A DNA stretch of 64,000 bases, from assembly GCA_964491535.1 (NCBI GenBank), contig CAZBGR010000002.1, positions 3,440-67,439 of the forward strand. The letters run 5' to 3'. Of the stretch, positions 9,168-11,091 are shown one piece after another. Made by a program: the position numbers and the translations under genes. Below the pieces are notes generated by a model. It was not told the DNA's origin. It saw only the letters and a program-made list of their open reading frames with translations, and made no database searches. Each line of letters starts with the position of its first letter. Position 1 is the stretch's first letter. Source of the DNA: an uncultured Muribaculaceae bacterium. Lineage in GTDB: Bacteria > Bacillota_I > Bacilli_A > RF39 > UBA660.

Positions 9168-9827
9168 TTATTCAACCTTACTTTCAATGATTGCTACTAT
9201 TTCAGCAAACTTACCTTCAATATCTTTATCACCTTCAATTTTAAATAACAATTTTTGTTGTTGATAATAATCAATTAAAGGGGCAGTTTTTTGAAGATAG
9301 TAATCAAATCGTTTATCAAAGGTAGCTTCATTTTCATCATCTTCTCTTTTAGTTAATGATTTCTTACATTTAGAACATTCAAGCTTATCATCAACCTTAA
9401 AAAAAGAAGTATGATAAATAGCTCCACAAGAAGGACAATTAAGTCTTCCTAAGATTCTTTCTTTAGCTAATTCTTTACTAATATCAATAAAGAAAACCAT
9501 CTTAATAGCTCGATTTATTTCTTTGGCTAAGCTATCATATTTTTTAGCTTGATTAAGAGTTCGAGGAAACCCATCTAAAATATAACCTTTAGCATATTTA
9601 TCCTTTTTTATTTCTTCAGCTAAAATAGTTAAAATAGTATCATCATCTATTAAATGACCCTCTTCCATTAACTGTTTAATTTCTTTCGCTAATTTATTAT
9701 CTGATTTAATAAATTCCCTAAGTAAATCACCTGTTGATAGATGAGGTAACTTATATTTTTCTTGAATTAGTTTCGCTTGAGTCCCTTTCCCAGCAGCAGG
9801 TGGGGCTAATAAAACAATATTTTTGAT
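9168..9827 (-). CDS. adk: Adenylate kinase, full length with a non-canonical start
   Basis: The frame is open from 9854 down and encodes the P-loop [12 protein letters not shown] upstream of the ORF-track Met at 9668, and also the lid-domain zinc motif CPSCG...CSKC. The only candidate starts near the P-loop are ATC at 9825-9827 or ATT at 9816-9818, directly downstream of a GAAGGTGA RBS-like sequence that contains the secY TGA stop. Confidence 0.7.
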   Translation of the reverse strand: [219 protein letters not shown]

Positions 9828-9831
9828 AAGA

Positions 9832-11091
9832 TCACCTTCTTTTATAATTTCTAGTCAATAATTGACTTTCAATTTGATTATAAGTTTCTAATAAAACACC
9901 AACCACAATTAAGAGCCCTGTTCCCCCAATCGTTATTTTAGCACTTAAATTAGATATGTTAGAAAAAATAATTGGCAAGCCAGCTATAATAACTAAGAAT
10001 AAAGCTCCTACGATAGTTAAACGTGATAATACTTGTTTAATATAAGTAGTTGTTTCTTCTCCAGGTCTAATACCAGGAATATAACCTCCATTATCATTTA
10101 AATCCTTCGCTAAATTTTTAGGATTAAGTTGAAAATAAACCCAAAAATAACAAAAGAAAATAATTAAAGCCATATAAAGAATAAAACCACTAATATTATC
10201 ATAACTAATATATTTTTTAATAAAAAGCAAAAAGCTATCTTTTTTAAGCAATTGAGCAATAAAAGATGGAACAGCAATAATCATTGAAGCAAAGATAACT
10301 GGAATAACTCCGGCTGAGTTTATTTTAATTGGCATATATGATTGTTTAGCTCCATAGGCACTGGCAGTCCGATTAGAATACTGTATTGGAATTCGGCGCT
10401 CAGATTGCTGAATAAAGACCATTCCTATTACAATTACTAAATAAACTAAGACAAACAAGCTGAAGGTTACTAAGCCAATAAAAATTGTTTGGGTATTAGT
10501 AAAGGTTACCATTTCTGAAAAAGCATTAGCAAACATCATTGGAATAGTCGATAGGATACCCGCCATAATAATTAAAGAAATACCATTACCAATTCCTTTT
10601 TGAGTGATTTGATCACCTAACCAAAGAATAAAGGCTGTGCCAGCTGTTAAAATAATAGCAGTTCTCATATAATCAATTGGCATAGCATCTTTTAGAAAGG
10701 AAAAAGAAATAGCATACCCTTGAATAAAGGCTAAAAATATTCCTACATATCTTGTTATTTTATTTAACTTTTGACGTCCTATATGACCTTGTTTTGATAA
10801 TTCAATAAAATAAGTAATATTTAACATTTCATGTTGTAATAATTGAATAGCAATTGAGGCTGAAATATAAGGCATTACCCCTACGGCAAAAATAGAAAAT
10901 TGTTTTAAGGCTCCACCTCCCATAACATTAATTAATTCAAGAAACCCTAAATCTTGAGTAATTCCTTCTGTTCCAGGAACTGAAATAGTTGTTCCTAATT
11001 CAAAAACAAATAAAGCAAAAAAAGTAAATAAAAGACGATATTGGATATCTTTATTTTTAGCTTTAAATAATTGCTTTATAAAATCAATCAT
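9832..11091 (-). CDS. secY: Preprotein translocase subunit SecY
   Basis: 419 aa, 10 TM segments, typical SecY sequence. Terminates with TGA at 9832-9834. Confidence 0.95.
   Translation of the reverse strand: MIDFIKQLFKAKNKDIQYRLLFTFFALFVFELGTTISVPGTEGITQDLGFLELINVMGGGALKQFSIFAVGVMPYISASIAIQLLQHEMLNITYFIELSKQGHIGRQKLNKITRYVGIFLAFIQGYAISFSFLKDAMPIDYMRTAIILTAGTAFILWLGDQITQKGIGNGISLIIMAGILSTIPMMFANAFSEMVTFTNTQTIFIGLVTFSLFVLVYLVIVIGMVFIQQSERRIPIQYSNRTASAYGAKQSYMPIKINSAGVIPVIFASMIIAVPSFIAQLLKKDSFLLFIKKYISYDNISGFILYMALIIFFCYFWVYFQLNPKNLAKDLNDNGGYIPGIRPGEETTTYIKQVLSRLTIVGALFLVIIAGLPIIFSNISNLSAKITIGGTGLLIVVGVLLETYNQIESQLLTRNYKRR

What the first reader, a model, noticed from the sequence alone, without database searches (positions are those of the whole stretch)
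9816..9860. adk has no canonical start codon: P-loop-encoding frame begins at ATC/ATT directly after the secY TGA, with an RBS overlapping that stop
The ORF caller starts adk at Met 9668, which removes the nucleotide-binding P-loop. The same frame is open upstream to a TGA at 9855-9857 and encodes (I)[37 protein letters not shown], a textbook adenylate-kinase N-terminus. That stretch contains no ATG, GTG or TTG. The minus strand reads AAAGAAGGTGATCTTATCAAAAATATTGTT. In this string, GAAGGTGA is a good Shine-Dalgarno sequence, and TGA is the secY stop. ATC follows 3 nt later and ATT lies 9 nt further on. This suggests initiation at a non-canonical AUC/AUU codon, possibly by termination-reinitiation coupled to secY. 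It could tune Adk stoichiometry, or it could be a sequence error.
Basis: seen in the sequence. Interest (0 to 1): 0.5.

Follow-up and report, generated by a model that had tools for sequence, protein, structure and literature searches.

The report
adk starts at a non-canonical ATC codon
In this uncultured low-GC bacterium the essential adenylate kinase gene has lost its ATG and almost certainly begins at a rare ATC codon behind an unusually strong ribosome-binding site, a real but already familiar kind of exception that gene callers mis-annotate as a truncated enzyme.

Summary
On the minus strand, secY ends at TGA 9834-9832. The adk frame is open from 9854 to TAA 9170-9168 and has no ATG, GTG or TTG before Met 9668, which lies downstream of the P-loop.

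ATC 9827-9825 sits exactly where seven related lineages have ATG (six) or GTG (one). A sister species (SecY 94% identical, Adk 78%) has ATT there.

- **Not a sequence error:** three further assemblies of the window species and four of the sister species show the same codons.
- **The upstream part is translated:** the 52 codons before Met 9668 have dN/dS about 0.09, and the first 22 codons show 0 nonsynonymous against 11 synonymous differences.
- **Strong ribosome-binding site:** GAAGGTGATC (9839-9830) overlaps the secY stop. It has the strongest predicted anti-SD pairing of the nine lineages compared and ranks in the top five of 58 starts in the window. Its spacing fits ATC, not ATT 9818.

Best reading: Adk (219 aa) initiates at AUC, driven by the strong Shine-Dalgarno sequence and perhaps helped by coupling to secY termination 4 nt upstream. 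That mechanism is inferred, not shown.

This is a new member of a known kind (infC, pcnB, ccpN, ebpA). Interest is modest.

The parts
9832..11091 (-). secY coding sequence (419 aa), stop TGA at 9834-9832
   Evidence: ORF list. Pfam SecY E=2e-97. It ends at the same position as its relatives, which use TAG, TAA or TGA there. TGA is therefore a stop codon in this organism.
9830..9839 (-). Extended Shine-Dalgarno sequence GAAGGTGATC, formed by the last two secY codons, the secY stop and 2 nt beyond
   Evidence: Predicted duplex with a Bacillus-type anti-SD is -15.6 kcal/mol, the strongest of nine lineages. Only 4 of 57 other gene starts in the window are as strong. GAGGTGAT followed by 3-5 nt and ATG recurs at other genes in the window.
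9825..9827 (-). ATC, the proposed adk initiation codon
   Evidence: Aligns with ATG (six lineages), GTG (one) and ATT (sister species). Lies 3 nt after GGTGAT and 4 nt after the secY stop. The NCBIfam and PDB Adk Met1 falls one codon downstream.
9168..9827 (-). Full-length adk (219 aa plus TAA stop)
   Evidence: TIGR01351 adk scores 220.6 bits against a cut-off of 168, with residues 3-214 covering profile positions 1-211 of 212. PDB adenylate kinases match at E=3.5e-53. Pfam ADK and ADK_lid both hit.
9780..9806 (-). P-loop APPAAGKGT
   Evidence: Codon table. P10, A12, G13, K14 and G15 are invariant in the alignment of relatives. It lies upstream of the Met that gene callers use.
9816..9818 (-). 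ATT, the alternative near-cognate start (rival)
   Evidence: Conserved as ATT in the sister species, but it is an ordinary Ile codon of strand beta-1 in relatives. It lies 12 nt after GGTGAT, and only one of 57 genes in the window shows a gap that long.
9666..9668 (-). ATG used by gene callers (166-aa truncated product, P0001)
   Evidence: No SD upstream (-5.1 kcal/mol, gap 13). This is codon 54 of the full-length gene.
9855..9857 (-). In-frame TGA that closes the adk frame upstream (inside secY)
   Evidence: The sister species has TAA at the same place, so the frame cannot extend further upstream under any genetic code.
8420..9166 (-). map (methionine aminopeptidase). Its TTG start lies 1 nt after the adk stop, so the operon is tightly packed
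   Evidence: Sequence. Gene calls on L005. Pfam Peptidase_M24.

Best explanation
adk is an intact, functional 219-aa adenylate kinase gene. Its ancestral ATG start has mutated at the third base to ATC in this species and to ATT in its sister species.

Translation most likely initiates at AUC 9827-9825 with fMet-tRNAfMet, despite a third-position mismatch. The codon would be placed in the P site by an unusually long SD (GAAGGUGAUC), which is built from the last secY codons and the secY UGA stop.

Because the secY stop lies only 4 nt upstream, ribosomes terminating on secY may also reinitiate here. That would partly offset the weak codon.

**Shown:**
- No canonical start codon in the frame.
- ATC is homologous to the ATG of relatives.
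- ATC/ATT is conserved across two species and several strains.
- The P-loop-encoding codons are under purifying selection.
- The SD is strong and correctly spaced.

**Inferred:** that AUC is the codon actually decoded, that the product starts with Met, the relative contribution of SD-driven and reinitiation routes, and any regulatory purpose.
For: 1. **No canonical start.** There is no ATG, GTG or TTG in frame between 9854 and 9671.
2. **Homology of the codon.** Junction alignment: window AGG TGA TCTT ATC AAA AAT ATT; sister AGG TGA TATT ATT AAA AAT ATT. Seven relatives have ATG or GTG followed by AAA/AAG AAT/AAC ATT-type codons at the same position, 7 codons (8 in L011) before the APPAAGKG motif.
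3. **Independent assemblies.** L005-L007 (three SRA runs) keep ATC, and two of them carry a synonymous AAT>AAC change at codon 3. L001-L004 (two SRA runs and two ENA assemblies) keep ATT.
4. **Purifying selection.** Window against sister, codons 2-53: omega 0.09 (21.5 synonymous, 14.5 nonsynonymous differences). The first 22 codons have 0 nonsynonymous and 11 synonymous differences. The rest of adk gives 0.20 and the neighbouring genes 0.04-0.19.
5. **Strength of the SD.** -15.6 kcal/mol for the window and -12.6 for the sister, against -6.8 to -12.2 in the ATG/GTG relatives. It ranks in the top 5 of 58 starts in the window. The 3-nt spacing after GGTGAT matches other genes, whereas Met 9668 and ATT/ATA 9848/9845 have no SD.
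6. **Protein models.** Solved-structure and NCBIfam models place Adk residue 1 one codon downstream of ATC.
7. **Precedent.**
   - AUC gives about 1-2% of AUG expression in E. coli and yields an N-terminal Met (bioRxiv 10.1101/063800).
   - The S. aureus infC, cvfC1 and ccpN AUA/AUU starts all have extended SDs (PMC13009471).
   - Non-AUG starts tend to carry stronger SDs (PMC5622118).
   - Termination-reinitiation works only at overlaps or very short distances (PMC10666635).
Against: - There is no direct evidence of initiation: no N-terminal peptide, ribosome profiling or toeprint.
- The organism's own 16S 3' end is not in the window. A Bacillus-type anti-SD was assumed, supported only by the recurring GAGGTGAT motifs.
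- The link between a stronger SD and a weak start rests on two related lineages against seven, which amounts to a single evolutionary event.
- AUC is a very poor start codon in E. coli, yet adk is normally an abundant essential enzyme. Output might therefore be low unless coupling or a lineage-specific relaxation of start-codon fidelity helps.
- ATT 9818 cannot be strictly excluded.
Confidence: 0.8

Rival explanations
1. Initiation occurs at ATT 9818-9816, three codons downstream. The resulting Adk would start M-V-L-L-A-P-P.
For: ATT is a near-cognate codon, is conserved in both species, and is a better-documented bacterial start than ATC.
Against: - It lies 12 nt after GGTGAT, with 10 nt after the last paired base. 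All but one of 57 genes in the window have gaps of 0-7 nt.
- Relatives also have ATT, ATA, ATC or GTT at this position as an ordinary beta-1 hydrophobic codon.
- The product would be 2 residues shorter at the N-terminus than the solved Adk structures.
- Codons 2-3 (K-N) are conserved, and the only strain-level change there is synonymous.
Confidence: 0.08
2. The gene is a decaying or truncated adk. Only the 166-aa, P-loop-less product from Met 9668 is made, or nothing at all.
For: Gene callers choose Met 9668 (P0001). The sister species is also called truncated, at 187 aa (P0002).
Against: - Omega is 0.09 on the 52 codons upstream of Met 9668 at dS of about 1.4. The P-loop is perfectly conserved despite 11 synonymous changes.
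- Met 9668 has no SD.
- The sister's called start is a different, non-homologous Met (codon 32).
- The catalytic Arg residues and the Cys4 lid are intact.
Confidence: 0.02
3. Sequencing or assembly error: the true codon is ATG.
For: None beyond the prior expectation.
Against: - The junction is the same in the window and three other assemblies of the species, including a strain variant. ATT appears in four assemblies of the sister species, from different projects.
- G>C or G>T is not a homopolymer-type error.
Confidence: 0.01
4. Adk is made as a SecY-Adk fusion by programmed +1 frameshifting at AGG-UGA, in the manner of prfB, so no start codon is needed.
For: An SD-like element next to an in-frame stop is reminiscent of prfB. 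The adk frame is +1 relative to secY and is open across the junction.
Against: - The P-site codon AGG cannot re-pair in the +1 frame (GGU).
- The SD abuts the stop instead of lying 3 nt upstream of the shift codon.
- Relatives have their own ATG/GTG, and their frame offsets relative to secY vary: 0 in L011 and L018, +1 in the others.
- No SecY-Adk fusion appears among the roughly 8000 Adk or SecY homologues scored. Listed lengths are 166-227 aa for Adk and 415-427 aa for SecY.
Confidence: 0.02
5. Initiation occurs at the upstream near-cognates ATT 9848 or ATA 9845 inside secY. This would add a 6-7-residue extension (IIKEGDL).
For: Both are in frame and present in both species.
Against: - Neither has an SD upstream (-1.6 and -2.2 kcal/mol).
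- They lie upstream of the conserved SD.
- Their conservation is explained by the SecY codons for RNYK.
- No relative has such an extension.
Confidence: 0.03

Closest known systems
E. coli infC (IF3) and pcnB AUU start codons
   Same: A near-cognate AUH start replaces AUG in a housekeeping gene. fMet-tRNA decodes it with a third-position mismatch, and efficiency is low and expected to be sensitive to IF3.
   Different: - Here the codon is AUC, with AUU in the sister species.
- The gene is adk, which has no obvious autoregulatory logic.
- The start is internal to an operon, 4 nt after the preceding stop.
- Nothing has been tested experimentally.
S. aureus / B. subtilis ccpN (AUA), S. aureus cvfC1 (AUU) and infC (AUA) with extended SDs (PMC13009471)
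   Same: These are Bacillota genes in which a weak AUH start is paired with an extended SD that lies close to the start codon and includes GGUGAU-type pairing. The non-canonical start is conserved across species.
   Different: Those sites were mapped by retapamulin ribosome profiling and by reporters, whereas this one is inferred from sequence. Here the SD is embedded in the upstream coding sequence and stop codon.
Enterococcus faecalis ebpA ATT start (PMC4447247)
   Same: The annotated downstream ATG is wrong. The true start is a rare ATT upstream, predicted from an RBS and from homology of the N-terminus.
   Different: ebpA is the first gene of a virulence operon and was confirmed by mutagenesis. 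adk is a core metabolic gene in the ribosomal-protein/secY operon.
Translational coupling by termination-reinitiation at short intergenic distances (PMC6728339, PMC10666635)
   Same: Co-directional genes, a stop-to-start distance of +4 nt, and an SD within the last 15 nt of the upstream gene.
   Different: The classical cases overlap (ATGA, TGATG) and use canonical starts. Whether reinitiation tolerates AUC better than de novo initiation is not established in the papers read.

Membership tests
Adenylate kinase (Pfam PF00406 / TIGR01351), long bacterial form with a zinc lid | Full-length match to the family model above the curated cut-off | tested here: met
   TIGR01351 scores 220.6 bits against a cut-off of 168, with residues 3-214 covering profile positions 1-211 of 212. 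Pfam ADK scores 158 bits.
Adenylate kinase (Pfam PF00406 / TIGR01351), long bacterial form with a zinc lid | N-terminal P-loop GxxGxGKGT | tested here: met
   Present as the variant APPAAGKGT at 9806-9780. The K-G-T core is intact, and the same variant occurs in all eight close relatives that have normal starts.
Adenylate kinase (Pfam PF00406 / TIGR01351), long bacterial form with a zinc lid | Lid domain with a four-Cys zinc motif, and conserved catalytic Arg residues | tested here: met
   ADK_lid scores 31.1 bits. C131, C134, C151, C154, R89, R124, R128, R161 and R173 are invariant, and R37 is nearly invariant (at least 90% of sequences), in the alignment.
Bacterial non-canonical (AUU/AUC/AUA) initiation sites | No canonical start in frame that could yield the conserved N-terminus | tested here: met
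   Codon table, 9854-9671. The upstream stop is TGA here and TAA in the sister species.
Bacterial non-canonical (AUU/AUC/AUA) initiation sites | Near-cognate codon at the position homologous to the ATG of orthologues, conserved in related species | tested here: met
   ATC (window), ATT (sister), and ATG x6 / GTG x1 in relatives.
Bacterial non-canonical (AUU/AUC/AUA) initiation sites | Strong, correctly spaced Shine-Dalgarno sequence | tested here: met
   -15.6 kcal/mol, with 3 nt between GGTGAT and ATC. The anti-SD sequence was assumed, not read from this genome.
Bacterial non-canonical (AUU/AUC/AUA) initiation sites | Direct demonstration of initiation (N-terminal peptide, initiation profiling, toeprint, mutagenesis) | not testable with these tools
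   The organism is uncultured, and no proteomic or ribosome-profiling data were accessible.
Termination-reinitiation coupled gene pair | Co-directional genes with an overlap or very short stop-to-start distance | tested here: met
   4 nt between the secY TGA and ATC. Relatives have 3-7 nt.
Termination-reinitiation coupled gene pair | Translation of the downstream gene depends on translation of the upstream gene | not testable with these tools
   Requires reporters carrying a premature secY stop.
prfB-like programmed +1 frameshift | Slippery P-site codon able to re-pair in the +1 frame, and an SD about 3 nt upstream of it | tested here: not met
   AGG to GGU gives no re-pairing, and the SD abuts or overlaps the stop. 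Relatives have independent starts and varied frame offsets.

The most novel reading that the evidence does not exclude
The AUC/AUU start may be more than a tolerated, slightly deleterious substitution. It could be a selectively maintained device that makes Adk synthesis depend on secY translation (obligate reinitiation) and/or on IF3 level. Adenylate-kinase dosage would then be tied to the output of the ribosomal-protein/secretion operon.

More broadly, low-GC uncultured Bacilli with extended GGUGAU Shine-Dalgarno sequences may tolerate AUH starts on core genes far more often than annotation shows. An unrelated trpS with an ATT/ATA start behind AGGTGAT turned up by accident in L014.
Probability: 0.15. 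Interest if true: 0.5.

Novelty: new member of a known kind. Interest (0 to 1): 0.35.

Why it matters
- **Annotation.** Gene callers give this lineage a P-loop-less 166- or 187-aa 'adenylate kinase'. No full-length protein record turned up in the homologue search. A metabolic reconstruction could therefore wrongly score adk as defective.
- **Biology.** This would be a rare natural AUC start on an essential, normally abundant enzyme. In a survey of 61,358 ancestral AUG starts, only one had switched to AUU and none to AUC (PMC5622118).
- **Compensation.** The weak start comes with a secY stop of TGA, where most relatives have TAA or TAG (one, L019, also uses TGA, but without the extended pairing). 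The TGA lengthens the SD to GGTGAT. This is consistent with compensation between start codon and SD, and it can be tested with simple reporters.
- **Limits.** It does not open a new mechanism.

Tried and rejected
- **Phytoplasma guess: wrong.** My early guess rested on several ORFs of about 700 aa that I took for FtsH paralogues. Pfam shows they are dockerin, LytR-CpsA-Psr+PASTA, sulfatase, GGDEF, LigA, UvrD and T4SS-coupling proteins.
- **Code 4 (TGA=Trp) extension to TTG 9872: rejected.**
  - secY ends at TGA exactly where most relatives end at TAA or TAG.
  - Ten genes in the window stop at TGA.
  - The sister species has TAA at the upstream in-frame position.
- **Genome-contig scan with Adk:** found only Ca. 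Phytoplasma pruni (42%) and Richelia (35%). The source species is not in that collection.
- **Metagenome pattern scan:** four hits, none a secY-adk junction.
- **Cluster look-up:** gave no organism names.
- **Rfam:** nothing in the window.
- **mRNA fold of the junction:** no more structured than shuffles, z=0.03. There is no evidence for a structural element.
- **Adk/SecY divergence ratio:** highest for the window-sister pair (3.8 against a typical 1.3-2.8). However, the dN/dS of adk (0.16) matches map, infA and rplO, so relaxed constraint is not established.
- **Persistence of ATY without reversion to ATG:** uninformative at dS of about 0.8 in an AT-biased genome.
- **Caveat on the alignment:** The PDB and NCBIfam results are the evidence used.
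Full report
**1. What is in the sequence**

The window is 27.6% G+C. Nearly all of its genes are on the minus strand. The finding lies in the distal part of the ribosomal-protein operon, which runs rplR-rpsE-rplO-secY-adk-map-infA-rpmJ-rpsM-rpsK-rpoA.

secY is the ORF 11091..9832 and ends ...RNYKRR-TGA, with the stop at 9834-9832. 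In the +1 frame the sequence is open from 9854 to TAA 9170-9168, after an in-frame TGA at 9857-9855. This frame encodes [47 protein letters not shown]....

A codon-by-codon listing shows no ATG, GTG or TTG before ATG 9668. The in-frame near-cognate codons are ATT 9848, ATA 9845, ATC 9827 and ATT 9818.

ATC is 4 nt (TCTT), not 3 nt, after the secY stop. The 'TGA at 9855-9857' and the 'secY TGA' are two different codons.

Among 57 minus-strand ORFs of at least 100 aa, adk stands out with 62 open codons before its first canonical start. Two other ORFs were flagged. One has an ordinary GGAGGTGA+ATG start. The other is an ORF split at an A8 run.

**2. It is a real adenylate kinase whose N-terminus is translated**

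Read from ATC, the 219-aa product behaves as a complete adenylate kinase.
- It matches TIGR01351 (adk) at 220.6 bits against a cut-off of 168, over profile positions 1-211 of 212.
- It matches Pfam ADK and ADK_lid.
- It matches solved adenylate kinases at E=3.5e-53. Residue 2 of those structures aligns with Asn 9821, so their Met1 corresponds to the codon just after ATC.
- The P-loop (APPAAGKGT, 9806-9780), the Cys4 lid and the catalytic arginines are all present.

Gene callers instead report a 166-aa product from Met 9668 (P0001). For a related organism they report a 187-aa product (P0002). These are the only two truncated entries among the 120 best Adk homologues, and no full-length record of this protein was returned.

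The related organism (L001-L004) has a SecY 94% identical and an Adk 78% identical to the window's. Its junction reads AGG TGA TATT ATT AAA AAT ATT GTA..., so it also lacks a canonical start. Its upstream in-frame stop is TAA.

Nei-Gojobori comparison of the two species gives these results:

| Region | omega |
|---|---|
| adk codons 2-53 (upstream of Met 9668) | 0.09 |
| adk codons 54 to end | 0.20 |
| secY | 0.044 |
| map | 0.146 |
| infA | 0.15 |
| rplO | 0.185 |

For codons 2-53 there are 21.5 synonymous and 14.5 nonsynonymous differences. The first 22 codons show 0 nonsynonymous and 11 synonymous changes.

The stretch that lacks a start codon is therefore under strong protein-level constraint. 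This rules out a pseudogene or a P-loop-less product as the main reading.

**3. It is not an error**

The same ATC junction occurs in three further assemblies from different sequencing runs (L005-L007). Two of them carry a synonymous AAT>AAC change at codon 3, so they are distinct strains. The ATT junction of the sister species occurs in two SRA-derived and two ENA assemblies.

**4. Which codon is the start**

I fetched the secY-adk junction from seven more distant relatives, with SecY 69-82% identical to the window's. Six have ATG and one has GTG. In each case the start lies 3-7 nt after the secY stop and 7 codons (8 in L011) before the APP motif, and is followed by codons of the AAA AAT ATT type.

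ATC 9827 and the sister's ATT fall in exactly that column.

All nine lineages encode the last SecY residue with AGG, so a Shine-Dalgarno (SD) core is built into the end of secY. In the window the element is GAAGGTGATC (9839-9830), which overlaps the TGA stop.

Predicted pairing with a Bacillus-type anti-SD:

| Lineage | Pairing energy (kcal/mol) |
|---|---|
| Window (ATC) | -15.6 |
| Sister species (ATT) | -12.6 |
| Seven ATG/GTG relatives | -6.8 to -12.2 |

Within the window, only 4 of 57 genes reach -15.6, even after choosing each gene's best candidate start. Many genes show GAGGTGAT followed by 3-5 nt and then ATG. Examples are secY itself and the genes starting at 55865, 39649 and 60987.

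For adk the spacing after GGTGAT is 3 nt to ATC but 12 nt to ATT 9818. The observed gap after the last paired base is 0-7 nt for 56 of 57 genes. Met 9668, ATT 9848 and ATA 9845 have essentially no SD.

The junction RNA is no more structured than shuffled controls.

ATC 9827 is therefore the best-supported start. ATT 9818 is a minor rival.

**5. How it most likely works**

*Shown:* the anatomy described above.

*Inferred:* on the polycistronic mRNA, the extended SD anchors the 30S subunit so that AUC sits in the P site. fMet-tRNAfMet then decodes AUC with a third-position mismatch.

Published precedent bears on this as follows.
- In E. coli, AUC, AUU and AUA support about 1-2% of AUG-level expression. 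AUC-initiated protein carries an N-terminal Met. Only infC and pcnB, both AUU, were regarded as confirmed natural cases (bioRxiv 10.1101/063800).
- In S. aureus, infC (AUA), cvfC1 (AUU) and ccpN (AUA) all combine a weak start with an extended, start-proximal SD. Their relative efficiency reaches up to about 30% of AUG (PMC13009471).
- Non-AUG starts tend to have stronger or better conserved SDs (PMC5622118).
- The secY stop is only 4 nt upstream. [quoted passage not shown] Reinitiation by ribosomes finishing secY is therefore a plausible additional route. I found no paper testing whether reinitiation tolerates AUC better than de novo initiation.

Evolutionary reading (inference): there was probably a single loss of ATG in the common ancestor of the two species, followed by a T/C transition. 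This is far more likely than two independent losses. In the survey cited above, only 1 of 61,358 ancestral AUG starts had switched to AUU and none to AUC.

The secY stop is TGA in both ATY species. That is what extends the SD to GGTGAT. Six of the seven relatives with a canonical start use TAA or TAG; L019 also uses TGA, but without the extended pairing. This fits compensation, but it amounts to one evolutionary event.

The lack of reversion to ATG over dS of about 0.8 in an AT-biased genome does not discriminate between selection for a weak start and simple tolerance of one.

**6. Rivals**

- **ATT 9818 as the start:** wrong spacing, and an ordinary Ile codon in relatives.
- **Truncated or decaying gene:** contradicted by omega 0.09.
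- **Sequence error:** contradicted by seven assemblies.
- **prfB-like +1 frameshift giving a SecY-Adk fusion:**
  - AGG cannot re-pair in the +1 frame.
  - The SD is in the wrong place.
  - Relatives have their own starts, at varying frame offsets.
  - No homologue has a length consistent with a fusion.
- **Upstream ATT/ATA inside secY:** no SD.
- **TGA read as Trp, allowing an upstream TTG start:**
  - secY stops at TGA where most relatives stop at TAA or TAG.
  - Ten ORFs in the window end in TGA.
  - The sister species has TAA at the upstream stop.

**7. Comparison with what is known, and novelty**

This works like the known bacterial AUH starts: infC, pcnB, ccpN, cvfC1 and ebpA. It meets every sequence-level criterion for that class. 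The experimental criterion could not be tested.

What is particular to this case:
- The gene is adk, a core and normally abundant enzyme.
- The codon is AUC in one species.
- The SD is made from the preceding gene's last codons plus its stop.

I searched for a previous report of a non-canonical adk start and found none in the held library. That does not prove there is none.

Verdict: a real feature and a new member of a known kind. It is useful as an annotation correction and as a neat natural example of pairing between SD strength and start-codon strength. Interest is modest, at 0.35.

**8. Context and by-products**

The organism is an uncultured low-GC member of the Bacilli. The nearest named SecY hits are MAGs labelled 'Bacilli bacterium' or 'Mollicutes bacterium'. 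Its cell-wall and anaerobe genes (LytR-CpsA-Psr+PASTA, PFOR, dockerin, GGDEF) show it is not a phytoplasma.

The metagenome pattern scan accidentally turned up an unrelated trpS (L014 and L017). Its HIGH motif lies upstream of the first ATG, and its frame begins AGGTGAT-ATT-ATA-AAA-AAT with no canonical start. Read from ATA, it matches TIGR00233 from profile position 3. This hints that AUH starts behind GGTGAT-type SDs may be under-annotated in such genomes.

Noticed in passing
L014:10293-10401 (also L017): An unrelated metagenome contig carries a trpS whose first canonical start (ATG 10401) lies downstream of the HIGH motif. The frame is open from TAG 10293 and reads AGGTGAT ATT ATA AAA AAT ATT GTA TTA ACG GGA GAT..., with no ATG, GTG or TTG. 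Read from ATA 10314 it matches TIGR00233 trpS (239.9 bits, cut-off 176.75) from profile position 3. This is probably a second housekeeping gene with an ATT/ATA start behind an extended SD.
   Followed up: partly
window 9780-9806 (-), and relatives L001, L010-L013, L018-L021: The Adk P-loop reads APPAAGKGT rather than the usual GxPGxGKGT: both leading glycines of the Walker A motif are alanine. The variant is shared by all close relatives, including those with normal ATG starts, and by the five full-length Adk homologues read (P0003-P0006 and L010).
   Followed up: partly
window 9835-9837 (-), and the homologous codon in eight relatives: The last SecY residue (Arg) is encoded by AGG in all nine lineages, although AGA is the commonest Arg codon in the window (290 AGA against 107 AGG). 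The adk Shine-Dalgarno core is thus embedded in, and seems to constrain, the end of secY.
   Followed up: partly
window 43257-44383 (-), A8 run at 43861-43868: A concanavalin/LamG-like ORF is split into two overlapping frames at an A8 homopolymer. ORF 44383..43766 has an ATG start. The frame 43877..43257 is open for 91 codons before its first canonical start. Possible explanations are a pseudogene, a phase-variable gene or a homopolymer error.
   Followed up: partly
L010:1491-2159: The ENA gene call for adk on this relative reads through a TGA, giving 222 aa against 216 aa under code 11. map starts at ATG 2146, right after that TGA. The contig was apparently called with genetic code 4, although TGA behaves as a stop.
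   Followed up: partly
window 20000-56000: The gene content shows that this 27.6% G+C organism is a walled anaerobic member of the Bacillota rather than a mollicute, despite 'Mollicutes bacterium' labels on related MAGs. It includes a dockerin-domain protein, LytR-CpsA-Psr with PASTA, a sulfatase-family (LTA-synthase-like) protein, a GGDEF protein, PFOR and a T4SS coupling protein (53793-55865). The coupling protein suggests an integrated conjugative element.
   Followed up: partly
window 9164-9170 (-): map appears to start at TTG 9166-9164, 1 nt after the adk TAA. secY, adk and map are thus packed with 4-nt and 1-nt gaps. The mechanical ORF list extends map to TTG 9187, inside adk.
   Followed up: no
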